Shown: positions 4,675 to 56,980 of the stretch, one piece after another
Layout of the letters: the number at the start of each line of letters is the position of its first letter
Position numbering within the stretch: position 1 is the stretch's first letter
Assembly: GCA_963514005.1 (NCBI GenBank)
Contig: OY740823.1
Coordinates: 8,122,001-8,186,000 of the forward strand
Reading direction: 5' to 3'
Length of the DNA stretch: 64,000 nt
Source: Raja brachyura
Lineage: Eukaryota
Position numbers and translations under genes: made by a program
The notes under the pieces: model-generated
Seen by the model: only the letters and a program-made list of their open reading frames with translations
The model's database searches: none
What the model was told of the DNA's origin: nothing

Positions 4675-5011
4675 AGTCTTCACGAAGTCACTCACGTGAC
4701 TCCGAAATGAAATAGTAAGATTGAACGAGAACTTACCAGTTCGAAGGTTGATCTTTATTTCATGAGGAGTCGAAGTGAGGGATTTCGTGCCCTCCTCGCC
4801 CAACCCTCAATCACCTTCATCTGGTAATCTTAGTCAATTCAATCATACTATGCGAAGTCATTTCTATTGTTGGTTCTGTGATTCCACGCCGCTACTTTGA
4901 AGTATGTCGAGCATGCGCGTCGGCGGGCTCTTCACGAAATCCCTCACTTCGACTCCTCATGAAATAAAGATCAACCTTCGAACTGGTAAGTTCTCGTTCA
5001 ATCTTACTATT
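4675..5011. repeat. DIRS1 internal complementary region (ICR) and right terminal repeat
   Basis: 4711-4789 is the exact reverse complement of 4933-5011; 4678-4712 resembles the complement of the left terminus seen in copy B (46017-46051). Confidence 0.9.
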
Positions 5012-27093: not shown

Positions 27094-29816
27094 ATGTGGG
27101 AAAAGCTTCAGGAATATTTTGACGTGGAGAAAATCTTGTACGTGACCATTGCTGCCGTTGGAGTCCCTGGTAAGTGAGCAGAACAATTCAACTTTTATAT
27201 TTCCGTGTGTTAAGCTGTGTTTAACTGATTCTGATCATGTTACAAGATGCCCAACTGATGGTCGTTGTGCAAGAATATGGGGTTTATCAATTCTCTCAGT
27301 GAGATATTTTTAAATGTTTCTTATTTCAGACAGCCGAAATCTGTGATGTTTCTTATTTTCAGACAGCCGAAACTAACCCTGGTTTTCTCTCACTGCCGGG
27401 ACCCACGAGAACGTTGTTCTTGCCTACAGTGGGATATTACCCAGAGTTGTCCCAGTGCTCGGGACAGGCAGCTCTCTGGGACGGTGTGACTGAGAGCGGT
27501 TTACACTGTGAAGTTCACTGTGTCTGAGTTATTGATCAGAGTGAACACCCGCTCCAATGGCCACGTCTCAGTGTGGAGTCTGTCACAGACGGCTGAGGAG
27601 GTGGATCTTCTGAACCAGTGGCCGCGTATCTACCGGCGTGTGTTGTTACCCATCTAAACTCACTGTGGAATGAATCCATTAACGGATCCACTCTGTTGCC
27701 TGTTATCCCTGCCTTACTTCTGGAACCATTCACATCCCCATCAGATGCAGCATTCCCAGAGCCCTGGTTAAACACGGCAGGTCGCGGTTAAGTCTGTAAA
27801 ACCAGCTCTGTCAGAGACTGTGAACAGGGTTAACACGAGGAAGGGTTATTGCGCTTATTGTAGCGGGTGGGTCCTCATTCCCTCCCTGCGCTTTACCCCG
27901 CCCGTCTCCTTATCTCTGCTCCCCTGATGCAGGCAGGTCGGGCACAGTCGGAGCCGGGTCTGACATTGTTAAAGTTGCCGCCGTGAACCGACTCCAACAC
28001 TTCTGATCAAAGACACTAGGCTTCTGATCTTTAAACCATATAACCATATAACAATTACAGCACGGAAACAGGCCATCTCGGCCCTTCAAGTCCGTGCCGA
28101 ACAACGTTTTCCCCTTAGTCCCACCTGCCTGCACTCATACCATAACCCTCCATACCCTTCTCATCCATATGCCTATCCAATTTATTTTTAAATGATACCA
28201 ACGAACCTGCCGCCACCACTTCCACTGGAAGCTCATTCCACACCGCTACCACTCTCTGAGTAAAGAAGTTCCTCCTCATGTTACCCCTAAACCTCTGTCC
28301 CTTAATTCTAAAGTCATGTCCTCTTGTTTGAATCTTCCCTATTCTCATAGGGAAAAGCTTGTCCACATCAACTCTGTCTATCCCTCTCATCATTTTAAAG
28401 ACCTCTATCAAGTCCCCCCTTAACCTTCTGCGCCCCAGAGAATAAAAGACCTAACTTATTCAACCTATCTCTGTAACTTAGCTGTTGAAACCCAGGCAAC
28501 ATTCTAGTAAATCTCCTCTGTACCCTCTCTATTTTGTTGACATCCTTCCTATAATTGGGCGACCAAAATTGTACACCATACTCCAGATTTGGTCTCACCA
28601 ATGCCTTGTACAATTTTAACATTACATCCCAGCTTCTATACTCAATGCTCTGATTTATAAAGGCTAGCATACCAAAAGCTTTCTTTACCACCCTATCTAT
28701 ATGAGATTCCACCTTCAAGGAACTATGCACGGTTATTCCCAGATCCCTCTGTTCAACTGTATTCTTCAATTCCCTACGGTTTACCATGTACGTCCTATTT
28801 TGATTTGTCCTGCCAAGGTGTAGCACCTCACATTTAGTTGAATGTCGAGCCGGTGCTCAGCCCCGGAGAACGTGTTCAATAATGCCCAGTGTTTGTCCCC
28901 TTCTCTTTCCGCAGTGAATTTAGTGGCGATTGTGATCCTGTCCCGGGGAAAGTGCGGCCTCTCCACCTGCACCACTCGCTACCTGGTGGCCATGGCAGCG
29001 GCCGATCTACTGGTCCTTATCAACGAGGTCATTTTGTATTGGATTCGACATCATTACATTAATTGGAGTTTCCCGGCCCCTGTGTGCAGTGTTATCGATG
29101 TACTGAGGTTTGCGTCTACAGACTGTTCCGTCTGGTTCACCGTCACTTTCACCTTTGATCGGTTTGTGGCCATTTGTTGCCAGAAGCTGAAAATAAAATA
29201 TTGCACCGGGAAAACTGCGGCTGCGGTTCGGGCAACAGCCGGCGTTCTGCTCTGGCTGAAAAACGTTCCCCGCTACTTCACAGTGGAACCCCGGGGAATC
29301 ATGGACAATGTCCCGTGGCTGTGTGTCTTGAAAGACAGTTATTACATTGACCCCGTGTGGGTGGCATTTGACTGGTTCGACACAGTTTCAACGCCGCTCC
29401 TTCCTTTCGCTGTAATCCTGCTGCTCAACGCTCTGACAGTCCGGCACATTTTAGTGGCCAGTCGGGTCCGTGAGGGGCTGAGGGGTGAGAGCAAGGGGGA
29501 GAACCGCAGTGACCCGGAGATGGAGAGCAGGAGGAGGTCAGTGGTTTTACTCTTCACCATCTCCGGCAACTTCATCCTCCTGTGGCTGACGTTTGTTGTA
29601 CAATTCGTCTATTATCAGATCACAGGAACTGGAAATGATTGGAATGAATCTCAATGGATCTTTAACAACGTCGGTTTTTTGCTGAGGAATCTCAGCTGCT
29701 GCACGAACACATTTATTTATGCGGCGACCCTGTCCAAGTTCAGGGAGCAGGTGAAGAGCGCGGTGAAATATCCGCTCACCTCAGTGCTTCGGCTCATTAA
29801 TAAATCCGCGCCCTGA
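27094..29816 (+). CDS. GPR139-like: GPR139/GPR142-like class A GPCR, two exons (27094-27169, 28915-29816), 325 aa, intact
   Basis: Exon 1 MWEKLQEYFDVEKILYVTIAAVGVP ends G|GTAAGT; exon 2 follows a pyrimidine tract and GCAG; phase-1 join reads GVP-V-NLVAIVILSR; seven hydrophobic segments, MAAADLL, SVWFTVTFTFDRFVAIC, LLPF, CCTNTFIY...SKFR; 978 nt in frame. Confidence 0.88.
28034..28836 (-). mobile_element. young CR1 LINE (TATATGGT family) in the GPCR intron
   Basis: Nearly identical to 8343-9185; 1-nt frameshift near 28445; ends about 80 bp upstream of the exon-2 acceptor. Confidence 0.92.
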
Positions 29817-34095: not shown

Positions 34096-34959
34096 TTTGA
34101 GGACGAGATTGGCGAGGGCCCGACGGGTTCAGATTCAGTTGTTCCCGCTCCCGCCCGGCAACGGGAGAACGATCTGCCCGGACCGCCTGCCAGCAGCAGA
34201 CCCGCTCCCTGGACGCCAGGCGTTGGACGGTCACCGCAGCGCCTGACCTCTCCCCCCTCACCCCTCACTACCCCAGCCTGGAGAAATGGGGTTTTCCCCC
34301 AAGGATAAGAAACAGACGCCCCTCCCACAACGCAATATTCCACTACTGTCTGGTACCCTCTCCAAAACCACAATTTCTTCCCTTTAATGGGGCGATTGGA
34401 TCTGTACTCAATGCTCCAATTGCGGCCTCATCAAACTCATATAGAACTGCATCATGACTTCCTGACCCTTATGCTCAATACCCCTAGCAATGAACGAAAG
34501 CACACCATACGTCCACTTTACCATCAATATGTGCTGCCAACTGCAGCGAGCTATGAACTTGGACTCCTAGATCCTTCAGCACATCCATGTTCTTCAGAAT
34601 CTATCAAGTTACTGTATAAAACAGCCTATCATTGATGATCATTGAATGGTGGCAGCTTCACGTAAATTAAAATGGATTTCAGATGGTAAGCGAGGATCAA
34701 ATGTGAGGGAAATGTCTTTTCCGATTCAAATGGATTATAAATGGATTATAATATGTTCACTGTGGAGGAATGATGTGTTGTTTCCAAGACCATATGTAAT
34801 AATAAAAGGGATTGAAGCATCTTTTATTTGCAGCGCCAAGCCAAATGTTATTAACTAACTATTAAGAGACGTTGAGGGTATGTTGGCAATTGGCTAGGAT
34901 AGACTGGCAAATTATACATAAAGTGTTGATGGTGGAGATGTAATCGCAAATATTTAAAG

Positions 34960-36785
34960 ACCGCATGGACTTTAAAGACTCCAAAATATGTTCATCCCCA
35001 GAAAGAAATAATATGGGGAAGGCGGCTCAACGTGACTAACGAGGGAAATCAAGGATAGTGTTAAATCCAAGGAAGAGGTTATAGAAATTGGCCAGAGGAC
35101 TGGAAGAAATTTAGAACCCAACAGGGTTAATTAAGAGCGGGAAAAGAGAGCATGAAAGAATGCTTGCAGGGAATATCAGGCTACAATATCTTCTTTAGAT
35201 ATGTAAAAAGGAAAAGATCAGTGAAGAAAATTTACAATCAGAGACAGGTGAAATTCTAATTGAAAGCAAGGAACTGGCAGGACATTTAAACGAGTACTTT
35301 GGTTCAGTATTTACTAAGGAAGACAAAAACAATCTCCCAGACATACTAGGGACCGAGGATTTAGTGGGAGGGAGGAACTGAAGGGAACCCACGTTAGCCA
35401 GGAAATGGTGTTATGTAAACTGTTGGGACTGAAGACAGATAAATCCGCAGGGCCTGATTGTCTGCATCCCAGAGTATTCAAGGAGGTGGCCCTAGAAATC
35501 GTGGATGCATTGGTGATCATTCTCCAATATTCTCCAGACTGGATCCATTCCTGCAGGGTAGCCGTTGTAGCTCCACTTTTTAAGAAAGGAGGGAGAGAGA
35601 AAACAGGGAATTATAGACCAGTTAGCCTTACATCGGTCATGGGGAAGATGCTTGAGTCAATTATTAAAGATGTTACAGCGACGCATTTGGAAAGCAGTGA
35701 CAGGATTGGTCAAAGTCTGCATGGCTTTATGAAGGGAAATCATGCTTGACTGATCTTCTGGAATTTTTTGAGGATGTAGAATGGATAAGAGAGAGCCAGT
35801 GGGTGTGGTGTATCTGGACTTTTATAAAATCTTTGACAAGGTCCCACACAAGAGATTAGTGTGCAAAATTAGATCACATAGTATTGGGGGAAGGGTATTG
35901 ATATGGATAGAGAACTGGTTAGCAGACAGGAAGCAAAGGGTAGGATAAACTGGTCCTTTTCAGAATGGCAGGCAGTGACCAATGGGGTGCGGCAAGGCTC
36001 AGTGATGGGACCCCAGTTATTTGCAATATTTATTAATGATTTAGACGAGTGAAATAAATGTGTCAATTCCAAGTTAAGTTTATGGATGACACAAAGCTGG
36101 GTGGCAGTGGGAGCTGCGATGCAGATGTTATGAGGCTGCAAGGTGACTTAAAATAAGAAAGATGCATGGCAGATGCAGTATAATGTGGATACATATGAGG
36201 TTATCCACTTTGGTGGCAAGAACAAGAAGGCAGTTTATTATCTGATTGGTGTCAGATTGGAAAAAGGGGAGATTGCAATGAGACCTGGGTGTACATCAGT
36301 CACTGAAAGTAAGCATGCAGGTTCGGCAGGCAGTGAAGAAATTTAACGGCCTTCATTGCGAGAGGATTTGAGTTTCGGAGCAAGGAGGTCCTACTGGCAG
36401 TTGTACAGGGACCAACTGAGACTACACCTGGAGTATTGTGTGCAATTTTGATCTCCTAATTTCAGGATGGACATTATTGCTATTGGAGGAGTGCAGCGTA
36501 GGTTCATCAGGTTAATTCCCGGGATGGCGGGACTGAGAGGCTATATGCAGGAAAAATGTTCCCGACGTTGGGGGAGTCCAGAACTAGGGATCATAGTTTA
36601 AGAATAAGGGATAGGCCATGTAGGACTCTTGGGTCTTAGGACTAATGGAATCAAGGGATGGGGGGGGGGGGAGCAGGAACGTACTGAATTTAGATGATCA
36701 GCCATGATTATGTTGAATGGTGTCTGTTCGAAGTTTCGAATGACACATCTTTTTCTATATTTCTATGTTTCCTCTATGTTTCTAA
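34960..36785 (+). mobile_element. older degraded CR1 LINE
   Basis: KSAGPDCLHPRVFKE, NYRPVSLTS, multiple frameshifts, TTCTATGT tail. Confidence 0.85.
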
Positions 36786-36880
36786 CACATGACGCGTCAA
36801 GTATCAAGAATGTATAATTTTCGTAAGTTCCGAAAGCGGTACAATTAAATTCTTACTTGGGCCTGGACGTACATGGCAGT

Positions 36881-37455
36881 NNNNNNNNNNNNNNNNNNNN
36901 NNNNNNNNNNNNNNNNNNNNNNNNNNNNNNNNNNNNNNNNNNNNNNNNNNNNNNNNNNNNNNNNNNNNNNNNNNNNNNNNNNNNNNNNNNNNNNNNNNNN
37001 NNNNNNNNNNNNNNNNNNNNNNNNNNNNNNNNNNNNNNNNNNNNNNNNNNNNNNNNNNNNNNNNNNNNNNNNNNNNNNNNNNNNNNNNNNNNNNNNNNNN
37101 NNNNNNNNNNNNNNNNNNNNNNNNNNNNNNNNNNNNNNNNNNNNNNNNNNNNNNNNNNNNNNNNNNNNNNNNNNNNNNNNNNNNNNNNNNNNNNNNNNNN
37201 NNNNNNNNNNNNNNNNNNNNNNNNNNNNNNNNNNNNNNNNNNNNNNNNNNNNNNNNNNNNNNNNNNNNNNNNNNNNNNNNNNNNNNNNNNNNNNNNNNNN
37301 NNNNNNNNNNNNNNNNNNNNNNNNNNNNNNNNNNNNNNNNNNNNNNNNNNNNNNNNNNNNNNNNNNNNNNNNNNNNNNNNNNNNNNNNNNNNNNNNNNNN
37401 NNNNNNNNNNNNNNNNNNNNNNNNNNNNNNNNNNNNNNNNNNNNNNNNNNNNNNN
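36881..37455. other. assembly gap
   Basis: Run of N. Confidence 1.
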
Positions 37456-38903
37456 ATAATGAAAACCCTACAGTGGAAGTGTTGAAAGAACTCGATTCCT
37501 CCATTGATCTCGCGTGCTTAGACATTTCTTCAAGTGGAGATTCAAGTGGGCAGCAAAATAATATTCTGAAGTGAATCCGTAATATAAAATCGCATTATTT
37601 TATTTGAACAAGATATGATAAAATAGACTCCCTCGGAGAATTCAGTTGATTCGCGCCAACTGCCGATATCGTTAAAACATATAATCGCCATCGAGAATGA
37701 TATCTTCATTGCCTTATTTGTGTTGCTCTAAAAAGGGCTGGAAGCAGATCAGCTGATTTCAACAGCCCCAGACCTGTTCGTTTACTGAGGGACAGAAACA
37801 GAATCAATGTTCCCCCAGAGGCGGAAAACAGATAAAGTGAGAAAGGAATGCAAATCTCCGAACAGATTTCATCAGAGACATTTATTTTAAATTGTCAACG
37901 TTCTCTCCTGTAAATAAAATAAAGTTGATGTGCATATGGATGATGTTAGTCAATAATATGTCTACAAAACTAGGTTAACTGAGAACATGCATCATATCCC
38001 TTTATTTACCAACAATGGCTGGGATCAATAAGATTCTCTGCATGCATTTGAATGGCACACGTGACAAATTCACAGATGCATAGAAAATACAATAAGTTCA
38101 AATTCAAGTCAGAAGAATACTATGTTGGAACGCGGGAAACTTTAATTGTCCGTATGCACCTTAAAATTTTCGACACTCCTCGTGTTTTCCTCACAAATCG
38201 GTGAACTACTGTTTCTATCTATCTCCTCAGATAACTCTAGTGGATTCTTCTTCAGATATCTCTATTAGGTTTTTCGACACCATCCGCCCAACCAGTGCAA
38301 GCTGAATCATTGAAACACTATCCAACAAATATGCTCATTGATTGATTGGTTAGAATGTGCCTTCATTCAGCTTTGCTCTTTGGAAGCAGCATCTGAAAAT
38401 CAACACCACATGAATCATCCCTAATGCCGATCATTTCTCCAATCACTCCACAGATCCACAATTCCCCTCCTGCACTATGCCGTCCATTAATTTCCTTCCG
38501 ATCTCTTAATGACATTTTAATAGAATGTTGTGTTTGCTTTGTATCAATTTCCTCTACTGCCTTTTATGTAACAAATCTCGATATTGCCATTTTATCTGTA
38601 GGGCTGTATGGTGACCACACATTTCACTGTACCAACTGGAACATGTGACAAATAAATGTATCTTGATATTGGAATGGACAGTCCCAATATTGTTCGAGCG
38701 GCTCATATTGATAACAACGAATGTGTTGGAAAGAACTGCAGATGCTGCTTTAAATCGAAGCTCGACACAAAATGCTGGAGTAACTCAGCGGGACAGGCAG
38801 CATCTCTGGAGGTCTGAAGAAGGGTCTCGACCCAGAACGTCACACATTCCTTCTCTCCAGAGATGCTGCCTGTCCCGCTGAGTTTCTCCAGCATTTTGTT
38901 TCC

Positions 38904-39050
38904 NNNNNNNNNNNNNNNNNNNNNNNNNNNNNNNNNNNNNNNNNNNNNNNNNNNNNNNNNNNNNNNNNNNNNNNNNNNNNNNNNNNNNNNNNNNNNNNNN
39001 NNNNNNNNNNNNNNNNNNNNNNNNNNNNNNNNNNNNNNNNNNNNNNNNNN
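38904..39050. other. assembly gap
   Basis: Run of N. Confidence 1.
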
Positions 39051-39319
39051 ATTTTTTCTCACCGCTCCTCTCTCTCCCTCTCACACACGCAAGCACACGC
39101 ACACCCAGAAACATTGTAATATAAATTTGAGGAATTCCGAACATATTTAACGAAAAAACTGCACTGTGAAACCAATCTTTCAACCATCTTATTTACAACT
39201 GAACCATGAGTTTATATTGTGTAAGGGGCGGAAAAGCACGCTGTTTTATTAACCTCTTGTGCATCTGTATCAGTTAATAGATATGAAAGCGTGAGTCCAT
39301 CTTGCTGTTGAGTTAGGAG

Positions 39320-39390
39320 CCGTGTGTCAGCTCCGCTCGAGTTTACTGGCCCCGCCCACAGCAACACCGGCTTTTGCCGGGTATTTAATT
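39320..39390 (+). promoter_or_regulatory. putative IgH V promoter without a proximal octamer
   Basis: TATTTAA at 39382-39388, about 95 bp before the leader ATG; GC box GGCCCCGCCC at 39348-39357; TGTGTCA at 39323-39329; no ATGCAAAT nearby. Confidence 0.5.
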
Positions 39391-39479
39391 CTCTCTGAGA
39401 GGGTCCGAAATCCAACTTCCTTGCAGTTGGTTTGTTGCGAGTTTCTGTACAGAAACAACCGGTCACACTACCCAGCGGG

Positions 39480-39525
39480 ATGAGGTCGGCGGTTTCACTG
39501 AGTCTGTTCCTGGCGTTAATAGTCC
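39480..39525 (+). CDS. IgH leader exon
   Basis: 46-nt exon MRSAVSLSLFLALIV followed by donor GTGAGT; typical VH leader length and phase. Confidence 0.9.
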
Positions 39526-39699
39526 GTGAGTAATGAGTTGGAAACAATCCTCACGCAAGTTTCTCAGTGGTATATCCCCTACACCATTCCCCTTCTACCC
39601 ACTCTAGAACCCTCCCAATTTCTTTCCTCTTGATAATTAGAGTCGGGGATTAATGGTCAATAATTTATCCTCACCATTCATGCCTTTTTTAACTTGCAG

Positions 39700-40067
39700 G
39701 CGTCCATTCCGATATCGTTCGAACTCAGCCCAAGGCAGAGACCGCCCGTCCTGGAGGCTCCATCACACTGACCTGTGAAGTCAGCGGGTTCAGTGTTGGC
39801 CGCCACCATATGGCTTCGGTCCGTCAGTTCCTCGGGCAGGGGCTGGAGTGGCTGCTTGCCTCCCCCACTTCTCACACCAACTACTTCGCTCCGGGGATAG
39901 AGAGCCGATTTACTCCGTACACAGACAATTCGAATAATATGTTCACTGTGACGGCCAGGAACCTGAGGATGGAAGACACCGCCGTCTATTACTGTGCGAG
40001 AGATATAGACTACAGTACGCCGGTCTTGACTACTGGGGGGGAGGCACCGTGGTGACGGTAACCAGCG
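39700..40067 (+). pseudogene. IGHV: pre-joined VH-D-JH exon, non-productive
   Basis: Acceptor TTGCAG; VHS|DIVRTQPKAETARPGGSITLTC...MASVRQ...GLEWL...EDTAVYYCAR; about 20-nt junction; JH LDYWGGGTVVTVTS in a different frame, ending G|GTAAGA; V frame stops at 40053-40055; conserved Trp TGG reads TCG. Confidence 0.93.
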
Positions 40068-41767
40068 GTAAGAAACTTCATCCTATTCAGTCTCTAGATG
40101 TATCCAGTTGTAATTGTATTCTATATTTCCAATAAATATATTAAATTGTTCTTCTGGATTAATTATCCATTCATTGCAATGTTGGATCGATGTTGTTTAA
40201 GAAATGGTATGTGATTCCGCTGCAGTGAGATTCCCGATTTATGACTTTCGATCCTTTGAGTATAAAACGGATGCGGTTTAGTTCCAAATTAGTGGGAAAA
40301 TGTGCATCAATTTGCTTTCACTGTGCTTTCTAATTGTTTGAGATTGTTGTGGTTCTTGATCTGCATCTAACTGTATTTTCTGATCAACAGCAGGTACTTT
40401 GTCTCCGTTTGTTTCTTCTCAGCGCATATGAAACAAACGACAGAAACCGATAAATCCTGGGTGTAAACTGTTCAAGTTTTTGAAGTGTGTGTATTAATTG
40501 GTGGAAGCGCCTTGCCACCTATAACCCAATCGATAACAAAACTTGCATGGAAGAAGTAAACATTTCTTGCAGCAAAACACAGAAGTGCAAGGTTCATCGT
40601 CAGGGTTAATTGCGCAGTTATATATCTTGAAGTGCAATGAATAGGAAGAGCTGTGGATGATGATTTGTGCTGACGATTGACACAAAGCTGGAGTAACTCT
40701 GCCTGTCCCGCTGAGTTGCTCCAACTTTTTTTTGTCTATCTTGAAGTACAATGAGTTGGCCATGTGAACCAGTGATACAGCAAAGCTAAGAAAGCTAAGT
40801 CCGTGAAACGCGATCTATAAAATGACAATGTACCGGGTGTACTAGGGGACAGGAACTAAGGTGACGGAGGAACTGAAGGAAATTCACATTATATGGAAAT
40901 GATATCTATGTAATCCATGTGTATTGTGTTGTTCGTAGTTATTTCAACAAAGATTGGCTCCGTGGTCATTGGAACAATGAATTTCGGTGGACATTGGACA
41001 GAGATGTTTGGATTTTTGTGCAGTGTTTCAGCAAATCGATTCATCCCATCGGCGGTATCATTCTGCCGGTCATTGTGGGAGACGATATTGTTGCGCAAAT
41101 TAACCTATTTGTACGTTCAATTGGAGTGGCAGCGACCGGGTATTGCTGTTGTATGAAGTGTCGGATAATCTCTGAACCATTTATAAACAAAAACTCTTCC
41201 CTCTTCCTCCAAATCAAAAGTTTAGCCATGGTCACTCTCAGTGGCCCAAGCGAAACCTACCTAAATTATTTAATAGTAAGATTAAACGAGAACTTACCAG
41301 TTTGAAGTTTGATCTTTATTTTATGAGGTGTCACGATGAGGGATTACGTGAAGACCCCGCCAGCACGCATGCGCGACATTCTTCAAAGCAGTGGTGTGAA
41401 ATCACAGAACAAACAATCACAATGACTGACATAGTAAGAGAAAAAAGAGAACTTTCATACCAGGTGATCTTTATAATAGAGGGTCGGGAGCGGAGGGCAC
41501 GTAATCCCTCATCGTGACACCTCATAAAATAAAGATCAAACTTCAAACTGGTAAGTTCTCGTTTAATCTTACTATTTTACTTCGGAGTCACGTGAGTGAC
41601 TACGTGAAGATTTCAAAGCTCTGTGATTTCATGCCCTGGAAGCTCCATGCTCACACACCGCTAAAGCTGGGATAAGAGGATGGACGTGATTCAGACAAGA
41701 CACTGGCTGAAAAACAAAACAGGTATTTATTCATACCAAACACAATATTGTGTCCCAAAAGGGTTAT

Positions 41768-42751
41768 TTAACTGGCAGCACTTAAGATCCTCCCTGCATA
41801 ATTGTCAGGGGAGGTCACGGGTTTGTTATAAAAGCGGTGGAAGGTTCTCTCATTGTTCCAACCCGCTGTGGCCAGGATGTGATCCAGTGGTACCTCCATC
41901 CTTCTAGCCGCCGAGGTGGATGCTGCCCTGGTGGAGTGAGATTTATACACATTAGTATCCACCCCCGCCGCATCCAGTACCACCCTTAACCATCTGGAAA
42001 TGGTTTGCACCGTGACCCTGTGATGAGGCTTCTTGTGACTGACAAGCAAAGCTGTTTCCGTGCCCCTTAGATCTTTAGTGACTGAAATGTATCGCAGAAT
42101 CAATGTAACGATACAAAGACGAGTGTCCGCTGGGTAACCCAGGAACTCCAAAGTATGTCCAGACACTCCGGGTCGATCTTGCTTCAATAGTCCCTGCACC
42201 TGGAATGTGATCTTCCCACTGGTAATTGCCATGGCATCCAGACTGAGTTTGTGCAGGGACTGGACCCGTTGCGCCGTGATCAGTGCCATTATCATGACCA
42301 TTTTGTAGGTTAATTTGGCCAAAGGGAGTCCCGTGTTCGGTGTCCATCCTCGCAGCATCGTCAATACCGTGCTGATGTCCCAGGTATGGCTATATCTGGG
42401 CCTGGGGGGATTAGAATTAAATATTCCCCGCATAAATTTGGATACCAGGGGATGTGACCCAATTCCCAATTGGTCACTCCCCTTGCCCAAGTAAGACGAT
42501 AGGGCACTCCTGGCACAGTTAATGGCGCTGTAGCTTAAACCCTCATCGTAATGAAGGGTAGCCAGAAACTCCAGCACTTCCGTGATGGTGGCGGTTTCGT
42601 ATGTAGTTTTAGTAGTCACGCAGAATCTTTCCCACTTCCTGATGTAGGTCAAGTACTGCTTCCTTGTGGACTCTCTGCAGGCTCCCGTGATAGTATCAAT
42701 GGTCCTGTTGGAGAGTCCGAGTCCATGAAGTGGCCGTTTTAAAGTCTGCAA
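41768..42751 (-). CDS. DIRS1 tyrosine recombinase (intact)
   Basis: TAQRVQSLH, HSTRAASTS, AGW...TFHRFY: catalytic R, H-x-x-R, W and Y all present. Confidence 0.9.
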   Translation of the reverse strand: MQTLKRPLHGLGLSNRTIDTITGACRESTRKQYLTYIRKWERFCVTTKTTYETATITEVLEFLATLHYDEGLSYSAINCARSALSSYLGKGSDQLGIGSHPLVSKFMRGIFNSNPPRPRYSHTWDISTVLTMLRGWTPNTGLPLAKLTYKMVMIMALITAQRVQSLHKLSLDAMAITSGKITFQVQGLLKQDRPGVSGHTLEFLGYPADTRLCIVTLILRYISVTKDLRGTETALLVSHKKPHHRVTVQTISRWLRVVLDAAGVDTNVYKSHSTRAASTSAARRMEVPLDHILATAGWNNERTFHRFYNKPVTSPDNYAGRILSAAS

Positions 42752-44752
42752 ATTAACAAATCCATACGATCATGACATGGATGACTTTCTCCTGTAACAG
42801 GATGAACAAGCAGGCTTGGTCTTTTATTCACCCTGACACAGGGTTCTGTGGCCATCTTTTGTACCAGAGGGAACCATGGTTGAGTAGGCCAGTCGGGCAC
42901 TACCAAGATACCCGATGCGGAGTCTTGCCTGATTTTTTTGCAAGACCCGACTGATGAGGCAGAAAGGGGGGAAAGCGTAGAAAAACAAATCCCCCCAGTG
43001 TAGCGAGAAAGCATCCATCGCTACCGCCCCCGGGTCTGGCTCCCAAGCAACATACGTTGGTAGTTGGTGATTTAGCCTGGACACGAAAAGGTCGATATCT
43101 GGTGTCCCATAACGTTCTACAATATCTGTAAACACTTTCCGATCCAACATCCATTCTATGTTGTCGTTGAATTTCCGTGATCTGGTGTCTGCCACTGTGT
43201 TTAGTTTACCTGGTAGGTAAGTTGCAGAGATCCAAATTCCTCTTTGCAGACACCAGTGCCAGATATTGTTGGCCAATTCATCACACGATATCGACTTTAC
43301 ACCGCCCATGTGGTTAATATAGGCTACCACCGTGGTGTTGTCAATCTGTAGTCTAACATGAACTTTGTGCATGTTAGTGCAGTATGCTTTAAGTCCGTGA
43401 AATGCTGCGAGCATTTCTGAATAGTTAATCCCTAAGTTTTTAAATAGGGTTAACTCTGGTGCACTCCATCTACCTCCACAGCTAGAGGTAGTGTTAGTAG
43501 CTCCCCACCCTTTGGCACTGGCATCCGTTTGTAAGGTGATCGAGGGATTGGCGATAGTCATGGGTTTGGAACAATTTTGGGCATTACCCATCCACCAATA
43601 TAGTTCAGCTTTTGCCTTTTCTGGAATTTTCATGGGCCTATCAAAATGGCCAGCATGATTTTTGAGCGCCGTAATTTTTGCTCTTTGTAAATTTTGGTAA
43701 TGTAAGGGCCCATATTGTGCTGCAGGAAATGCAGCTACTATCTTCCCAATCACCCTGGCCACCTGCCGAATGGATGGGACCTTAATGCCAAAGAGGCTCC
43801 TGCAAGCCTCTATCAGGTCTTCCACCTTGCTTGGTGGTAACGTGACAGACATTTGCACTGAGTCAATAATGAACCCCAAATATTTCATGGTGGTAGAGGG
43901 TTCCAATATTGATTTATCTGGATGTATCGTAAACCCCAGTATCTGAAAAATATGTTTCGTGGCTGTGACTGCCAAAGTAGCCATTTCCAAATTCTCCCCC
44001 ACTATGAGGATGTCATCAAGATAGGCCATAACAGTATGATTCTGTTTCCTTAAATAGGACAAAGCTGGTTTCAATATCTTGGTAAACAATCTGGGTGCTG
44101 ACGATAGCCCATTAGGCAAAGCTTTATATTGCCATAATTGTCCCATCCAGATAAATTTTAAGTATTTCCTATGATCCTTGTGTATGGGTACTGAATAGTA
44201 TGCATCTTTAAGGTCAACGCATGCCATGTAGTACCTATTGGCTACAAGCTGAGTAGCAGTGTCGAAGGTGTCCATTTTAAAATGAATATACTGGACAGAA
44301 GTATTCAGGTCGGTCAAATCTATGATGATGCGGCACCCGCCATCTTTTTTGTTTTTAGTGAATATATTAGACACGAACTCCTGAGGTTCTTTAAAGGCCT
44401 TTTCAATTACCCCTTTTTCTATTAACCTCTGTAGTTCAGCATGCCCTGCTGCCTTATCTCTATGAGAAAGGACGAATTTCCGACTAGGCGCATGCTGTAC
44501 CGGGGTAGGGAGTTCGTGAATAAATTCAATTTTGTAGCCCTGAATACTCCTGAGTATATAAGGATCAGAGGTAAAAGTGAGCCAATTCTCGAGGAACATG
44601 TGCAACCTGCCCCCTATGCAAAGTGAATTTGGGCCAGTAGTGTTCTTGGGGATCCCAGACCCACCTACCTCCATGGTTACTGCCGGTGTGGAGGTTTCTG
44701 CCCTTGCTTCCTCGGCTGGTTGTAGGTGTTCTGGGAGTGGCGCATCTTCCAA
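42739..44752 (-). CDS. pol: DIRS1 RT / RNase H / methyltransferase; single +1 frameshift in the homopolymer at 42933-42939
   Basis: VDLKDAY, LPNGL, YLDD, LQTDAS, YAFPPF; the C-terminus KIRQD...VPDWPTQPWFP continues in ORF 42739-43014. Confidence 0.9.
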
Positions 44753-45984
44753 GGAGGCCGGCCTGGGCCTTGGCCTAAAAAAGACCGCTGTGCAGGTATG
44801 CCGGCCTTCGAGCTTTCACCACCGGCAGACCTGTTAGGGTAACTCTGCCCGGTGGGTGCGTAGGGGTGCGTTCTGTGTGGGTGATGAGGCTTAGTGTACC
44901 CAGGTACTTTAATAAGGCCCAAAGCCTTAGCCTCCTCGTCAAGATCTTTAACCTGTTTGGGGAGATCTTCCCCAAATAGCAGGCTTGGAGGCTGTGTCTT
45001 CCCAGGCTTACACAACCCCGCGAACTTGGGGTTAAGCGCCGGCTTTATAATGCTTTTCCTGAAATTATTTATTTCATACTGTGTGTTGCACAGTAAGGCC
45101 AAAGCATCTTGTAGTTCTTCCGGCATGTCCACTCCCACTGCTGTTCTGGCTACTGCAGTAATCCCTGCGGTAAGGAGCTTCAGGATCTTCTGAAGTTTCA
45201 TCTCCTGCCCTCTACTCGAGGGGCTCATGTTTCCCCATATCGGGTTGTTCACCGCGGGTACATTTAATGACTTGCAGTTTTCTGGCGCCATATATTTATC
45301 TGCTGTGGCATTGATGGCCTGTTCCTGAAGTTGGTTAGTGGCCATATAATCAATGCTGGCAGCCAGCTTGGGGTGGATGGGTAGGCCCTTCTGGTTGGGC
45401 ATGGCATGTTTGCTCACCACATCCATATAATCTTCACACACCCCTGACGCTGCAGGTGCTTCAGCCAACTCCCCTTCTTCTGGGTCAGCCCAGTTCTGAC
45501 CCTCAATGCTCCCCTGTATAGAAGGGGATACATTAGGCAGTCCTCGAAAGGAACTTGCCGTGGGCCTACTAGGGGTCCCACTGTGATCCTGCCCCTGCTT
45601 TAGCAGGTCACGTTGGAGCAGCTGCTCCATCATCCGCTCAATGCGGTCAAGGCGGCCTCCGTCGCTGCCAGCGAGCGGGGTGCCCTCGGGACCGGACTCC
45701 GCTGAGTCGGCCCCGGCCGACTTCCGGATAGTTTTCCCCTGACCGTGGCGTACCAACGGTCTCAAAGTCCGAAAAGTCGGGAGCTGCAGGTAGAACCTGT
45801 AGCTCTGGAGAGGCGGTTCTCCGTTGGCTGCTGTCCTTAGCCGCTGATTTGGCCGCCGCTCTCTTTGATTTTCTCCCTTCCATGATGGTCGACTCCCTCC
45901 TTCGGTGAGACTTACCTGGCGTGAGCTTTTAAACTCACGCTGGAGGAGCCCCGCTCCTCCCGACCGTCGCTTCCGCATGCGCAC
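44677..45984 (-). CDS. gag: DIRS1 gag-like ORF (open; true start codon uncertain)
   Basis: 435-aa ORF overlapping the pol start; homologous to copy A gag. Confidence 0.8.
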   Translation of the reverse strand: MRMRKRRSGGAGLLQREFKSSRQVSLTEGGSRPSWKGENQRERRPNQRLRTAANGEPPLQSYRFYLQLPTFRTLRPLVRHGQGKTIRKSAGADSAESGPEGTPLAGSDGGRLDRIERMMEQLLQRDLLKQGQDHSGTPSRPTASSFRGLPNVSPSIQGSIEGQNWADPEEGELAEAPAASGVCEDYMDVVSKHAMPNQKGLPIHPKLAASIDYMATNQLQEQAINATADKYMAPENCKSLNVPAVNNPIWGNMSPSSRGQEMKLQKILKLLTAGITAVARTAVGVDMPEELQDALALLCNTQYEINNFRKSIIKPALNPKFAGLCKPGKTQPPSLLFGEDLPKQVKDLDEEAKALGLIKVPGYTKPHHPHRTHPYAPTGQSYPNRSAGGESSKAGIPAQRSFLGQGPGRPPWKMRHSQNTYNQPRKQGQKPPHRQ

Positions 45985-46249
45985 GACGATATGTCGCGCA
46001 TGCGTGCTGGCGGGGTCTTCACGTAGTCACTCACGTGACTCCGAAGTAAAATTGTTATTAAATAAATACAAATGTAATTTTGAACGTCAGTCAAACACTC
46101 CTTTGAACCATTGATTTCAATTTCCACTCTGTTCACGGATTAGTGGGATTCCTGTTCTATAATTCAAATAGCAGAGAAAATGTCCTTTCCAACAATTTCC
46201 CAATTTCCATTTCACCAATTTCCATTTAGTTGGGTACATGGGACAACCC

Positions 46250-47076: not shown

Positions 47077-47373
47077 CGGCTCCATCCGCCTCCAGCCCCT
47101 TCATTCTCTTCACCTGCGAGGATCACGGCTGCAGTGGTTCGTTCACCTATAGTTGTTTGGCGTTGGGTTATTTCCCTGCGGGCGCCAGTGTTTCTTGGAA
47201 GAAAGATGATAAGCAACTGACCACCGGAGTGAAGGACTACCCGGCAGTGTTCAATAAGTTGGGAACTTACACCCGGAGCAGCGTGTTAACCATCACCGAG
47301 GCGGAGGCAGGGGGAGGCGACATCTTCTGCGTGGTTCAGCACGACCAAAAAGAGTATGAAGTGAAAGTACCAG
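47077..47373 (+). CDS. IGHM: IgM CH1 exon
   Basis: TTGCAG acceptor, G|GTTCGT donor, 297 nt; AAPSASSPFILFTC...CLALGYFP...VSWKKDDK...YPAV...GTYTRSSVLTITE...IFCVVQH. Confidence 0.92.
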
Positions 47374-48333: not shown

Positions 48334-50163
48334 ACGAAATATCGAGACAATTCACCATTTACAAAATCATAAACATTTATTTGGGAGCTCGAAAGGAGAT
48401 GATAATCAATGTATTATCATTACGAGTACATCCATATAATTCATGAGGAACTGATCTATCCATAGGTAGGCTACATTTTAACTCGCGAGCAATCGAAGCG
48501 GCTCGTGTTGAGAACATTATCAAGAGTATTAAAAGCACAAACACAGTCACAGAGGACAAAAGCAGAACAGTCGGCCCATTACATCCCTGTGATAACTATT
48601 TGACATCCTATGTTTAATCCTATGGTGTATTGTGTATTTTTATGTTTTTATTTTATATGGATGTATGGTAAGCTAATTTTTTTCTCTGTAAAGCACTTTG
48701 GCTACAACATTTGATTTAAAAGTGCTATGTAAATAAAAATTACTTACTTACCGAGCTATAATGTCCCCGTTTACGAGCACTTGATGTACCATGACAAACA
48801 AAGAATTTAGCAGCATCTCGGGAAGTCCAAGTGAGTGGATGGCTACTTTTAATCGGAAAAGGTGATTGTTTTTTGGTCAAAATATTGGGTGTCATTAATT
48901 GACGATAGTTTATGAGCAATTCCAATGTAGTTATTTTCAGTTCGCGGAGGCCGTGCTGAATGCAGGTCAAGAACGTGGAGATGTCCCAGAATGAGGGGTT
49001 TTTCTTTTGTTGTTAACAAATGTTGTTCTTATTTTTCAGTACAAGCAGTCTGGAAAGTTGATTACTCCTATCCATCCTTATAAGTGGTGTGTGACAGCAT
49101 GGACGTGGTCCAGGGCATGGAATCACAGAGCTTTGAAGTCGTCACAAAGTCACTCACGTGACTCCGAAATGAAATAGTAAGATTAAACGAGAACTTACCA
49201 GTTCGAAGGTTGATCTTTATTTTATGAGGAGTTGCGATGAGGGATTTCGTGCCCTCCGCTCCCAACCCTCGATCATAAATCAATTGGTAATTAGAGTCTC
49301 TTCAATCTTACTATACCAAGTCATTTCTCTGTTGTTGTTTCTGTGATTCCACACCGCTACTTTGAAGAATGTCGCGCATGCGTGCTGGCGGGTTCTTCAC
49401 GAAATCCCTCATCGCAACTCCTCATAAAATAAAGATCAACCTTCGAACTGGTAAGTTCTCGTTTAATCTTACTATTTTATCACATCGATTTGCACATCAG
49501 AACTTTTCAAATGCAATTTTAAGAAACTCAATGGTAAATTTTGCATGGAAATTTTGCACGAAATATCGAGACAATTCACCATTTACAAAATCATAAACAT
49601 TTATTTGAGAGCTTGAAAGGAGATGATAATCAATGTATTATCATCACGAGTACATCCATATAATTCGTGAGGAACTGATCTATCCATAGATAGGCTACAT
49701 TTTAACTCGCGAGCAATCGAAGCGGCTCGGGTTGAGAACATTATCAAGAGTATTAAAAGCACAAACACAGTCACAGAGGACAAAAGCAGAACAGTCGGCC
49801 CATTACATCCCTGTGATAACTATTTGACATCCTATGTTTAATCCTATGATGTATTGTGTATTTTTATGTTTTTATTTTATATGGATGTATGGTAAGCTAT
49901 TTTTTTTCTCTGTAAAGCACTTTGGCTACAACATTTGATTTAAAAGTGCTATGTAAATAAAAATTACTTACTTACCGAGCTATAAAGTCCCCGTTTACGA
50001 GCACTTGATGTACCATGACAAACAAAGAATTTAGCAGCATCTCGGGAAGTCCAAGTGAGTGGATGGCTACTTTTAATCGGAAAAGGTGATTTGTTTTTTG
50101 GTCAAAATATTGGGTGTCATTAATTGACGATAGTTTATGAGCAATTCCAATGTAGTTATTTTC
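48334..50163 (+). repeat. about 605-bp direct duplication of the CH1-CH2 intron 3' end (48334-48938 and 49558-50163)
   Basis: Two near-identical blocks, ACGAAATATCGAGAC...GTAGTTATTTTC. Confidence 0.92.
48939..49477 (+). mobile_element. DIRS1 3' fragment (YR tail, ICR, right terminus), copy-A-like family
   Basis: Homologous to 4480-5011, including the inverted repeat. Confidence 0.9.
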
Positions 50164-50169: not shown

Positions 50170-50487
50170 AACCCGTGGTACATCATCCTACCGTCACCAT
50201 TACCATAACTGCCCTTGATGAAATCAAGCGCAGCAGAAAAGCGATCGCCGTGTGTTTGGTCAACGATTTCACCCCAGCGAAATTTACTGTGAACTGGCTG
50301 AAGAATGGAGAGCCATTGGATTCTGGCATCGTCACCTCTCCCGCCTTCCAGGTGAACAGTAAGGTTAACTTCTCGGCGACCAGCCAGTTGACATTCCCAG
50401 CTGCAGAGTGGTTCCGAGGTTTGGTCTATACCTGCCAAGTCAACCATGAAAAAGATTTGAAAAGCCAAAACATCAGTAGGTCTCCAG
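50170..50487 (+). CDS. IGHM: IgM CH2 exon
   Basis: TTTAAG acceptor, G|GTAAGA donor, 318 nt; HPTV...AVCLVNDFTP...VNWLKNG...FSATSQLTFPAAEWF...YTCQVNH. Confidence 0.93.
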
Positions 50488-53309: not shown

Positions 53310-53612
53310 ATGATAGTTCCTGCGGCGAACCGAAGATTACAATTCTTCCACCACCTGTTGAACAAGAGTTAATGGAGATGACCGTGACGTTAACCTGTCT
53401 GGTATCCGATGCACCTTGTGGTATCACGGTATCTTGGAACCACATGAAGGAACATTTGGAATCAGAGATCCAGCCCACAGAACATGCAGATATCGTAGAG
53501 AGCAAAGTCAACATTTCGACTCGTGACTGGCTGAGTGGGGATTATTTCGAATGCGTGGTGAGCCATGATGATATGCCGACTCCAAAAACTGAAAGAATCA
53601 ACTGGAAGAAAG
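53310..53612 (+). CDS. IGHM: IgM CH3 exon
   Basis: CCACAG acceptor, G|GTGAGC donor, 303 nt; SCGEPKITILPPPVEQ.LMEMTVTLTCLVS...VSW...VNISTRDWLSG..FECVVSH.DMPTP. Confidence 0.93.
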
Positions 53613-54009
53613 GTGAGCCGGGGTAGCTGCAGCGATGTTCAGTAGGCCAGAGGTGACTGGTGCACCTTTCTTCTGAGATAAAGCTAAAATTAATGATTGA
53701 GATCACTCCGTCGGCGAAGCAATGTCCATACAAAAGGAAATAGTGCTACCACTTCACTTAATCCTTGGTCAGAACTGGAAAAGAGAGAATACGAGATGAC
53801 TTTGCATGAATATGAGGTGCGGACAGGTTACTGGAAACATCGATGATAATTTGCGGCGAGAGTCAACGTGCGGACACGTTGTCTCTGGTCTCTGGTACAA
53901 TATGGGCATTCAGAGCATTGCAGCGGTTGTAATACTTGCAGGGATATGGGTTTGCCGACCAAATTACCATGTGGTGATGATGGTAAAAAGATTTGTGATG
54001 ATTTCCAAG

Positions 54010-55875
54010 GAAGGAACACCATTAATTTTATACCTAGCAAAGCAGAGGCTAAATTAGACAAAGGCATCTTATGAGATTTCAAAGCTAATAGCAAAAACTG
54101 GAAAACCGCATACCATACCAGGTGAAGATTTGATTTTGCCCGCAATATCTGTGGTGATTTCTACTGTCATGCAACAGAATCCCCCAAAAATTTTTGGAGG
54201 TCATTCCCTTGAGCAACAATACAGTATCAAGGCGCATTGATGAAATGGGAAAGGATGTAGAAAATCAACTGGTTACACTTTTACAAGTAAAGAATTTTGC
54301 ATTACAAATTGATAAATCATCTTTATGTGATAATCAAGCCCTTCTTATGGCGTATGTTAGGTTTTTGGATCATAATAGTGAACTTAGAGAGGAAATGCTT
54401 TTTGCCCGCAGCCTTGTGACAGATACTAAAGGTGAAACAATTTTCAAAGAAGTATTGGTCTATTTCCAAGCAAAAAATATTCCAATGGGTAACATTATGG
54501 CTTGTGCAACTGATGGTGCCGCTGCCATGGTAGGTAGATACAGGGGCTTCATTGCATATTTAAAAGAGACTGTGCCTAATGTTTTTTGCATACACTGCGT
54601 GGTTCATCGTCAACATTTGATTGCAAAAAATTTGGGAGGACGTCTGAAAGATGCTCTTGATAGTGTAATCAAGGCTGTCAACCTTATCAAGTCAAATCCA
54701 CTTCAAGACCGTCTTTTCCGACAACTCTGTGCTAGCAATGAAGAAGGGTTTGAACGCCTACTTTTGCATACAGAGGTGAGATGGCTTTCTAAGGGCAATT
54801 GCCTGTGTCGTTCTGTTGAACTTTGGGAGAGTGTTGTAACGTTTCTGACTGGTAAGCAGCCTGGAGAAGAAATCATAGCTGCCAAATTTGACATATTCTA
54901 CCTTTCAGATATATTTGAGAAGCTAAATATGTTGAACAAACAATTACAAGGTAAAAATACAAATCTTTTAACTTGCAAAGAGGCAATCAGTGCTTTCCTT
55001 GGAAAACTTAATCTGTTCAGGATTAATATTGGGCATAAGGAGTTGTTACACTTTCCAACCCTCGCCACTACTGAGGAGGAGCTGCATGAGGATGATATTT
55101 TAGTGTACATTGATCACTTGAAAAAAATGCACAATGATATGGAAATTAGGTTCAAAGATCTCCTGGAAATGAACATTCCAAGTTGGGTGGTAGACCCATT
55201 TGAGACAAATGCAGCTGATGTTGATATCATACTGCAAGAAAGTCTCATTGAGTTGCAGAGTAATCAAATTGCTCAAGCTAAATTTAAACATGGCCTCAAT
55301 AACTTATGGACAAGTAGTGAAATTGCCATGAAATTCCCATTGCTCTGGCAGGAAATAAAATTATATTTCATTGCCTTTCCAACCTCTTACCAAGTTGAGT
55401 CAGGTTTTAGCCGAGTGTCTCAGCTATTATCAAAAGCTCGCAACCGCTTAGAACATTGACATTGAAAACATGCGAAACTGCATCAGCCACAAGGATCTCA
55501 CTGAATACAGTAAAAAGCTAATATGATATATTTGTTTTTATTTTGCTAAAGGATTTTATTTTTTGAAGTACAAAAGTAATCATTTTTTAAAGGTTATTAA
55601 TTTTCTGGGTGTCCATGGATTTTTTTTTGTTATGCTGCTAGATCAGAAAATTAATGTATGATTATAAATGGTAGTTTTATTGAACCCACAAAATATTGTT
55701 GATGTTTGTGGAATAGAATAAAAGAGAATATATGTGCAATTAATAGACACTGATATTTTTATAGAAGGTATTATAATATTGAAGTACTTCTTTCCCGCTA
55801 ATAATGTCAGGGGGGGCTCAGAAAAATTAAAAGATCCCAAGGGGGCCATGAGCTAAAAAAGGTTGGGAACCACTG
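54010..55875 (+). mobile_element. hAT (Buster/Charlie-type) DNA transposon, 5'-truncated
   Basis: 3' TIR (reverse complement CAGTGGTTCCCAACCT) ends at 55875, followed by TCCTAACT (NNNTANNN target pattern); 5' TIR not found. Confidence 0.85.
54194..55459 (+). CDS. hAT transposase catalytic core and dimerisation region (ZBED5/SCAND3-like), N-terminally disrupted
   Basis: LSNNTVSRRI, FALQID, TDGAAAM, HCVVHRQ, TEVRWLS, FPTSYQVESGFS. Confidence 0.85.
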   Translation: MEVIPLSNNTVSRRIDEMGKDVENQLVTLLQVKNFALQIDKSSLCDNQALLMAYVRFLDHNSELREEMLFARSLVTDTKGETIFKEVLVYFQAKNIPMGNIMACATDGAAAMVGRYRGFIAYLKETVPNVFCIHCVVHRQHLIAKNLGGRLKDALDSVIKAVNLIKSNPLQDRLFRQLCASNEEGFERLLLHTEVRWLSKGNCLCRSVELWESVVTFLTGKQPGEEIIAAKFDIFYLSDIFEKLNMLNKQLQGKNTNLLTCKEAISAFLGKLNLFRINIGHKELLHFPTLATTEEELHEDDILVYIDHLKKMHNDMEIRFKDLLEMNIPSWVVDPFETNAADVDIILQESLIELQSNQIAQAKFKHGLNNLWTSSEIAMKFPLLWQEIKLYFIAFPTSYQVESGFSRVSQLLSKARNRLEH

Positions 55876-56251: not shown

Positions 56252-56980
56252 GTTTACTTCGGGGTCACGTGAGTGACTTCGTGAAGACCCCGCCAGCATG
56301 CATGCGCGACCTCCAGGTAAGTTTTGCTAACTTTGAGTTGGTTTGGCACTCTGTGTTTCCAAAATCTTCTATTACAGAGCACCCAGAGCCGAGTATGAAG
56401 AAGGGTCGAAGCAAGAAAAGGGCTGCTTCCAGGCACGCCACGGAGGGCCGCGGGACCTCGGAGAAAGTTCAGTGGCCAAATTCTCCAGAGCTGGCCGTTG
56501 AATATACGGCAGCCCCCATTCCACTACAGTCCGGGTAGCCCCGTTCTATTGGCAGGCCCCCACTCTCCACCGCGACAGTCCGGAAGAACGCGGACTGGCG
56601 GCAGATCCGTGCGGAGGTCGCGTAGCCCCGTTGATACAGCAGGCATTGACTTTCCACCGCAACAGTCTGGAAGACTACCACGGACTGGCGGTCACAGCCC
56701 CGTTGACTCAGCTGAGTCGGGGGACGACGATCTGCCATTCGTAGATAGCAACGGCGATCGCATTGCCCGCATGGAGTGGATGATGGAGCAACTGCTCCAG
56801 AGGGACCTACGCCAGCAGGAGCATGGTCCCCATGGACCGTATCACAGGCCCACGACAGCACCCTATCCAGGACTGTCCAATGTCTCTCCTGCCTCGATGG
56901 GGAGTGCCAGAAGTGTGGGCTGTGCTGACTTTGAAGAAGGGTTGACAGAAGACCTAAAATTGCAGGGGATGCAAGAAGTA
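56252..56980 (+). mobile_element. DIRS1 5' fragment (left terminus and gag start)
   Basis: TTTACTTCGGGGTCACGTGAGTGACTTCGTGAAGACCCCGCCAGCATGCATGCGCGAC matches the copy B left end; RIARMEWMMEQLLQRDL. Confidence 0.85.

What the first reader, a model, noticed from the sequence alone, without database searches (positions are those of the whole stretch)
39480..40073. Germline-joined but out-of-frame VDJ: a fossilised RAG recombination event
Seen: VH runs through YYCAR into a roughly 20-nt junction (GATATAGACTACAGTACGCC) and then a complete JH with its splice donor. No heptamer or nonamer remains, and the leader intron and 7-kb J-C intron are intact, so this is not a processed cDNA. J codons start at position mod 3 = 2 and V codons at mod 3 = 0. 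The shift lies in the junction, not in the G7 run. Known: sharks and skates carry pre-joined IgH clusters attributed to RAG activity in germ cells. Inference: a non-productive join could not have been B-cell selected, so it records unselected germline joining; ACTACAGT may be a D core flanked by N/P additions.
Basis: partly seen in the sequence, partly recalled or inferred. Interest (0 to 1): 0.75.

Follow-up and report, generated by a model that had tools for sequence, protein, structure and literature searches.

The report
Pre-joined dead skate IgM gene
This skate antibody gene has its V, D and J pieces already joined in the genome, out of frame and without its tail exons, so it is a dead example of a known shark-and-skate oddity, likely joined by the lymphocyte recombinase acting in an ancestor's germ line.

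Summary
Leader, VH, a 20-nt junction and JH are fused without recombination signals; Cys-to-Trp is 44 nt, so J is out of frame. One contig from a public run matches 39893-40049 exactly, which argues against an assembly error. The gene is IgM: C1-C3 are open, C4 and TM are missing, and 4.8 kb of the J-C intron is a DIRS-like retrotransposon. Against split clusters in this genome the junction parses as untrimmed V + 5 added nt + D1 + D2-like 8-mer + trimmed J. It is not unique: of 27 IgM VH loci found, 9 are fully joined (6 distinct junctions, 3 out of frame), 5 partly joined, 13 split. Germline-joined Ig genes are known; Lee 2000 found 4 of 6 in frame. The frame alone does not prove germ-cell joining, and a later indel is not excluded (about 22%). 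More interesting than this gene: all 10 dispersed clusters are joined, in-frame ones keep whole constant regions, and several junctions carry N-like bases. Earlier scan notes seen (8 of 25) did not concern this.

The parts
39480..39525 (+). IgM VH leader exon, open, GT donor intact
39700..40003 (+). VH exon to its untrimmed germline 3' end; open, but with radical changes at residues invariant in intact paralogues (L7R, V43F, P44L, S73Y; also L39S)
40004..40008 (+). 5 added bases at V-D1 (N, or partly P; could also be an unseen D1 allele)
40009..40015 (+). D1 core ACTACAG, identical to the 5' end of D1 of split cluster L006
40016..40023 (+). 8 bases: either D2 with two transitions (6 of 8 match to the L015 D2) or N bases
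   Evidence: whole parse, 300 shuffles, p = 0.017
40024..40067 (+). JH trimmed by 4 nt, out of frame with V; donor GT at 40068-69; V-frame stop at 40053-40055
41272..46055 (-). DIRS-like retrotransposon in the J-C1 intron (RT ORF, tyrosine recombinase ORF, gag-like ORF, repeated ends)
   Evidence: the DIRS label is recalled from this gene combination
47077..47373 (+). C-mu 1 exon, open, AG/GT intact
50170..50487 (+). C-mu 2 exon, open, AG/GT intact
53310..53612 (+). C-mu 3 exon, open, AG/GT intact
53975..53990 (.). 3' breakpoint: homology to IgM clusters stops inside the C3-C4 intron; C4, secretory tail and TM not found in the rest of the window or the next 40 kb, and no C4 hit on this contig
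34346..39479 (+). 5 kb of upstream flank homologous to split clusters (two stretches read N)

Best explanation
This is a dispersed skate IgM heavy-chain cluster whose V, D1 and J (and likely D2) are fused out of frame in the genome and whose C4 and TM exons are gone; it was likely joined by RAG-type recombination in an ancestor's germ line, and the frameshift likely dates from that join. Shown: the fused out-of-frame junction, absent signals, kept introns and flanks, loss of C4/TM, single copy. Inferred steps: (1) a whole split cluster of 20 kb or more was duplicated as DNA to this contig and worked for part of its separate history; (2) RAG cut at the 23/12, 22/12 and 12/23 signal pairs, the ends were trimmed, a few bases were added by hairpin opening or a TdT-like polymerase, and the ends were joined with no reading-frame check; (3) the dead allele was inherited and spread by drift, the loss being buffered by the split clusters; (4) it then decayed. 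Any transcript would stop at 40053 and make no heavy chain.
For: Frame and missing signals. Split clusters give the parts list and spacers V23-12D1 22-12D2 12-23J; V end untrimmed, D1 core and trimmed J fit ordinary coding-joint processing. Partial joins of the same kind exist: VD1-D2J (L013), VD1 (L016/17), D1D2J (L021/22). P-like bases at untrimmed ends in sisters: CCA after D2 in L003 and L008, T in L013 (read). Real and shared: a 157-nt contig of run X2 covers 39893-40049 with 0 differences and 0 gaps; contigs of X1 (39621-39911, 0 substitutions, 1 gap) and X3 (39738-39918, exact) carry this V; three samples, three studies, two organism labels. Not a somatic product of a split cluster held here: flanks differ 6-9% from the nearest ones, own branch 0.0475. 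The only frameshift in 1,251 coding nt plus the junction lies in the 20-nt junction: about 0.08 later frameshifts are expected there (hand arithmetic: 20 x 0.0475 x 0.08, ratio) against 2 in 3 for a blind join. Two other lineages are out of frame with heavy trimming (L010; L008/12/18/19, which lack the second Cys).
Against: The gene was not dead for its whole branch: 0 stops or frameshifts in 1,251 nt where 4-12 are expected under full neutrality across the parameter grid, and 7 of 178 invariant C residues changed, a rate like intact genes (0.83 per branch unit; intact 0.45-1.14; three Cys-less copies 1.8-2.3). That fits a late join of a working split cluster, but equally an in-frame joined gene that died later. 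The expectation is probably too high: dead L010 shows only 2 frameshifts in about 1 kb of exons. The junction starts in a GAGATATA dinucleotide run where slippage is easier. Only 1 of 4 runs showed a junction-spanning contig among 32 of 196 records listed; it has depth 2.7 and 26 nt beyond the junction (under the tool's 31-nt bridging rule for 40019-40023); run kind and tissue are not on record, and any of the runs could be the assembly's source. RAG or TdT activity in germ cells was not tested.
Confidence: 0.7

Rival explanations
1. The cluster was joined in frame in the germ line, worked as a pre-joined IgM like its three intact sisters, and later died by a 2-nt slip or 1-nt loss in CDR3 and loss of C4/TM.
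For: C1-C3 and all splice sites intact, C conservation like intact genes. In-frame joins L002, L003, L020 keep open C1-C4 and TM on branches of 0.06-0.11, so such genes persist. The J frame read upstream through the junction is open, and the junction begins in a dinucleotide run.
Against: A later indel must hit 20 of about 1,270 nt and none elsewhere (about 0.08 expected). No in-frame sister. Other out-of-frame joins here look dead from the start.
Confidence: 0.22
2. The joined locus came from a lymphoid cell's DNA that entered the germ line, rather than from recombination in a germ cell.
For: All 10 dispersed VH loci are joined while all 13 split ones sit in two arrays, as if moving and joining went together; junctions look lymphocyte-like with N-like bases; out-of-frame VDJ occur in shark lymphocytes (PMC2435157, passages).
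Against: No hypermutation footprint: private changes in V framework 6/225 against 139/4039 in distal flanks, 0 tandem changes in V, 0 of 3 G/C changes in AID hotspots; five joined genes pooled show no tandem excess in V (Fisher p = 0.68). Partial joins exist inside the arrays (L016/17, L021/22), so joining happens in place. C conservation argues against death at the time of the move. No route is known to me (recalled).
Confidence: 0.04
3. Assembly error, or a somatic B-cell allele taken into the consensus.
For: Source tissue unknown; only one junction-spanning contig was seen, at low depth.
Against: That contig matches letter for letter, including the G7 run; no split cluster held here has these flanks; the shift is not in a homopolymer.
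Confidence: 0.02
4. A relic of a never-split ancestral V gene, or a retrocopy.
For: None found.
Against: It falls among the split clusters on a tree of non-coding DNA, carries D1 and trimmed J, and keeps introns and 5 kb of upstream DNA.
Confidence: 0.01

Closest known systems
Germline-joined IgH (VD-DJ, VDJ) clusters of horn shark and skates (Kokubu 1988, Harding 1990: not held; known here through PMC5192425, PMC4279169, PMC2435157 and PMC2193153, passages)
   Same: Cluster-type IgM gene with V, D, J fused in the genome beside split and partly joined clusters; PMC2435157 notes germline-joined VDJ among clearnose skate IgH.
   Different: Here the germline D and J alleles are at hand, so the junction can be parsed; this copy is out of frame and 3'-truncated. 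Whether Kokubu or Harding already showed out-of-frame H-chain joins I could not check.
Nurse shark germline-joined NS4 light chains (Lee et al. 2000, PMC2193156; parts 1, 3, 4 of 7 and passages read)
   Same: Independent joins among split relatives, signals fully removed, trimming and P bases; 4 of 6 in frame, 2 pseudogenes.
   Different: Heavy chain with D segments. Lee found little evidence of TdT in the germline joins and called the H-chain mechanism unclear; here several joins hold bases not assignable to germline V, D or J (24-40 nt over 4 junctions).
Nurse shark IgM1gj (PMC4279169, PMC5192425, passages)
   Same: Fully germline-joined IgM VDJ.
   Different: IgM1gj is in frame, expressed in neonates and lacks C-mu 2; this gene has C-mu 2, is out of frame and lacks C4/TM. 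The intact sisters L002, L003, L020 are the closer analogues.

Membership tests
Elasmobranch IgM heavy-chain cluster | V-(D)-J followed by C-mu exons in one minilocus | tested here: met
Elasmobranch IgM heavy-chain cluster | C region closest to C-mu; four C domains plus TM in intact paralogues | tested here: met
   P0002 (77-88% to window exons) has named hits horn shark membrane Ig heavy C (53%), Triakis IgM (50%), IgM1gj (48%), and no hit named IgW among 20; paralogues have C1-C4+TM. No labelled IgW was compared directly.
Elasmobranch IgM heavy-chain cluster (functional) | C4 with secretory tail and TM exons | tested here: not met
   absent
Germline-joined IgH | V, D, J fused with signals and intervening DNA removed | tested here: met
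Germline-joined IgH | Introns and flanks retained (not a retrocopy) | tested here: met
Germline-joined IgH | Derived from split clusters | tested here: met
   non-coding tree, 17 loci
Germline-joined IgH | Same junction in non-lymphoid DNA of several animals | tested here: inconclusive
   exact junction contig in 1 of 4 runs laid, this V in 3 of 4; tissue and run kind not on record
RAG coding joint | Trimming, P bases at untrimmed ends, 12/23 rule obeyed | tested here: inconclusive
   J trimmed 4 nt, D1 trimmed at 3'; at most 1-2 possible P bases here; clearer P bases in L003, L008, L013; D2 use required by the spacers but matched only 6 of 8
RAG coding joint made in germ cells | RAG and TdT active in skate germ cells or early embryo | not testable with these tools
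   no RNA holder listed
IgM1gj-like functional joined IgM | In-frame VDJ, expressed in neonates | tested here: not met
   out of frame, stop at 40053

The most novel reading that the evidence does not exclude
This gene is one entry in a genomic record showing that the full lymphoid machinery, RAG plus a TdT-like polymerase, has acted repeatedly in the skate germ line. Every IgM cluster outside the two tandem arrays has ended up joined (10 of 10 loci; 6 distinct full junctions and one double partial join), out-of-frame joins decay, and in-frame joins are kept as three whole pre-made IgM genes. Joining would be a one-way ratchet that only array turnover resets, or be tied to the move itself.
Probability: 0.35. 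Interest if true: 0.62.

Novelty: new member of a known kind. Interest (0 to 1): 0.33.

Why it matters
By itself this is one dead copy of a gene type known since 1988. Its value is as part of a set: with the germline D and J alleles in the same assembly, heavy-chain germline joins can be parsed base by base, which Lee et al. 2000 said was not possible for H chains. That makes two standing questions testable: whether TdT acts in germline joining, and whether in-frame joined IgM genes are kept by selection (here 3 of 3 in-frame joins keep C4 and TM, and 0 of 3 out-of-frame lineages keep C4).

Tried and rejected
IgW/IgX: my first guess, from the missing framework-2 Trp; dropped because the four-domain C region matches IgM and all 27 paralogues lack that Trp. 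G7 slip as cause: rejected, J length equals paralogues. Inverted D2 as the core: 5-nt match, shuffle p = 0.26. Hypermutation footprint: none; a first impression of tandem changes in L020 (10 of 23) did not hold against flanks. dN/dS on C exons is uninformative: near 1 in split clusters too. Orthologous junction in another skate: the protein search returned 17 hits, none named as a skate protein, none above 49% identity; run X7 (organism C) has no cover over 39876-40011, which proves nothing; the junction in runs X1 and X3 stays unseen. No RNA holder listed. Five extra C4 copies (C15, C19, C3, C35, C5) have no V within 30 kb upstream. PDB search gave only generic antibody hits. The C3 stop counts used a wrong frame and were dropped; one search gives the right frame. 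Papers not held: PMC332511, PMC454840, PMC4874517, PMC29333; PMC2191167 held only as 10,251 characters with no hits. No supplements were read. The 8 earlier scan notes shown, of 25 that fitted, concern other genes.

Full report
Observation. The window is G000:C47:8122001-8186000. A leader exon (39480-39525), a 174-nt intron and an open VH exon (from 39700) run through YYCAR into a junction and a full JH with a GT donor at 40068. Cys-TGT (39993) to J-TGG is 44 nt, so J is out of frame and the V frame stops at 40053. The G7 run is ordinary W-G-G coding and has the paralogues' length. No signal sequence remains. The junction is single-copy.

What the gene is. C exons lie at 47077-47373, 50170-50487 and 53310-53612, open and with intact splice sites. 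The best named relative of C2 is an Amblyraja radiata protein at 92%, so the animal is likely a skate. A 468-aa relative with four C domains and TM matches shark IgM C regions best: the class is IgM. Homology to other clusters runs from 34346 to about 53980 and then stops; C4, the secretory tail and TM are absent from the rest of the window and the next 40 kb, and none of 26 C4 hits is on this contig. About 4.8 kb of the 7,009-nt J-C1 intron is an element with RT and tyrosine recombinase ORFs, DIRS-like by recall. The gene is dead twice over.

Census. DNA and protein searches found the same 27 IgM VH loci (40 of 45 and 150 of 207 candidates scored), so counts are lower bounds. Thirteen are split and four partly joined, all in two arrays (C2 150.3-151.1 Mb, C3 5.26-6.33 Mb). 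The ten others are dispersed and all joined: L013 is VD1-D2J, nine are full VDJ with six distinct junctions. In frame: L002, L003, L020. Out of frame: L001 (this gene), L010, and a four-copy family (L008, L012, L018, L019) that lacks the second Cys and lies 36-90 kb from contig ends; in L019 a tandem expansion has restored the length to a multiple of three. The three in-frame genes have open C1-C4 and TM1 (splice sites not checked); no out-of-frame lineage has a C4 hit nearby. With three against three this is suggestive only.

Junction. Split clusters have spacers V23, 12-D1-22, 12-D2-12, 23-J, with short D alleles. The junction reads: untrimmed V end (to 40003), tatag, ACTACAG, TACGCCGG, then J trimmed by four. 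ACTACAG is the 5' end of D1 in L006 (shuffle p = 0.02), and L005 and L006 share CDR features with this V. The spacers require D2 between D1 and J; the next 8 bases match one D2 allele at 6 of 8, both transitions (whole parse p = 0.017, 300 shuffles); with exact matches only, the best parse is different and weaker (p = 0.10). So 5 to 13 bases are non-templated, and fewer if the lost parent had its own D1 allele. L003 and L020 parse more clearly (0 and 3 of 300 shuffles reach the exact-match score) and L002 does not (p = 0.3-0.55); 24-40 nt over four junctions stay unassigned, 50-60% G+C. L021 also has a long insert between D1 and J, while L013 and L016 have none or one base. P-like bases appear in L003, L008 and L013.

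Is it real and inherited? Four public runs were laid. A 157-nt contig of X2 covers 39893-40049 with no difference; X1 and X3 have contigs with this V. The X2 contig has depth 2.7 and 26 nt beyond the junction, 164 records were not shown, tissue and run kind are unknown, and one of the samples may be the assembly's source. Independently, flanks differ 6-9% from the nearest split clusters and the locus has its own branch of 0.0475 on a tree of non-coding DNA from 17 loci (support for its exact place is low, 36-56), so it is not a somatic product of a split cluster held here.

When did the frame break? For joining: the only frameshift falls in the 20-nt junction, where about 0.08 later ones are expected (hand arithmetic), against 2 in 3 for a blind join, and two other lineages look dead from the start. 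Against death at the start of the branch: no stop or frameshift in 1,251 coding nt (4-12 expected; L010 suggests this is too high), and invariant C residues changed at the rate of intact genes while invariant V residues changed at about the neutral rate (7/178 and 4/45, small numbers). The gene therefore likely worked for part of its history, as a split cluster joined late (my reading, 0.70) or as an in-frame joined gene that slipped later (0.22).

Non-productive VDJ are common in shark B cells and thymocytes, and many were mutated (PMC2435157, passages), so the frame does not locate the event in a germ cell. I tested the lymphocyte-origin idea for a hypermutation footprint and found none. Partial joins inside the arrays show that joining occurs in place.

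Known work. Reviews describe partly and fully pre-joined clusters attributed to RAG in germ cells (PMC4279169, PMC5192425, PMC8355894, passages). Lee et al. 2000 (PMC2193156; parts 1, 3 and 4 of 7 and passages) found 4 of 6 joined light chains in frame, two pseudogenes, P bases, little evidence of TdT, and called the H-chain mechanism unclear. Lewis and Wu (PMC2193153, passages) discuss the same. PMC12227049 (passages) says the genomic distribution of clusters is not well known. Five searches listed no genome-wide census of joined skate IgM clusters, but the library lacks most subscription papers and the 1988-2001 originals were not held; I do not claim it is unpublished. No supplements were seen.

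Verdict. A real, likely inherited, out-of-frame germline-joined IgM pseudogene: a new member of a known kind, interest 0.33. The genome-wide pattern around it deserves a separate look.

Noticed in passing
L002 (C24:41.95 Mb), L003 (C9:1.06 Mb), L020 (C15:0.55 Mb): Three independently joined, in-frame IgM VDJ genes with open C1-C4 and TM1 exons on long branches: candidate functional pre-made antibodies, like nurse shark IgM1gj.
   Followed up: partly
L001-L027, genome-wide: All 10 dispersed IgM VH loci found are joined; all 13 split ones are in two tandem arrays. Eight of the 10 dispersed loci lie within 1.4 Mb of a contig end.
   Followed up: partly
L008, L012, L018, L019 (C4, C5, C17, C2 ends): One dead join (second Cys lost, D2 core plus P-like bases) copied to four places 36-90 kb from contig ends; in L019 a 10-nt junction unit has expanded by five copies.
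   Followed up: partly
L021, L022 (C3 array): D1-D2-J joined with a long insert while V stays split, and the V signal spacer is shortened to 13 nt, so the last step is probably blocked.
   Followed up: partly
L004-L027 VH exons: This whole IgM VH family lacks the framework-2 Trp usual in Ig V domains (Leu, or Phe, instead); D1 alleles differ by short triplet-like length changes.
   Followed up: no
window 41272-46055 (-), and 663-5011 (+): Two DIRS-like elements about 66% alike, with long open frames; the first sits in the J-C1 intron. Fragments also near 49083-49479 and 56254-56890.
   Followed up: partly
window 57673-59433 (-), 59970-60801 (-), 12203-13469 (+): A 587-aa open frame that looks like an endogenous retroviral envelope, with integrase-like pieces beside it, and a second, broken envelope-like copy; labels by recall, not scanned.
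   Followed up: no
window 54158-55456 (+): 433-aa frame resembling a hAT-type transposase (by recall; no Pfam hit) just past the 3' breakpoint of the IgM gene.
   Followed up: partly
window 28842-29813 (-): Single-exon 324-aa rhodopsin-family GPCR (PF00001), a usable synteny anchor.
   Followed up: partly
G000 C15:59.04 Mb, C19:48.33 Mb, C3:128.64 Mb, C35:31.57 Mb, C5:24.23 Mb: C-mu 4 copies with no V within 30 kb upstream: cluster fragments.
   Followed up: partly
G000 C10:5.03 and 5.34 Mb, C8:9.15 Mb, C283: V exons only about 40% identical to this VH: another isotype or receptor family, not examined.
   Followed up: no
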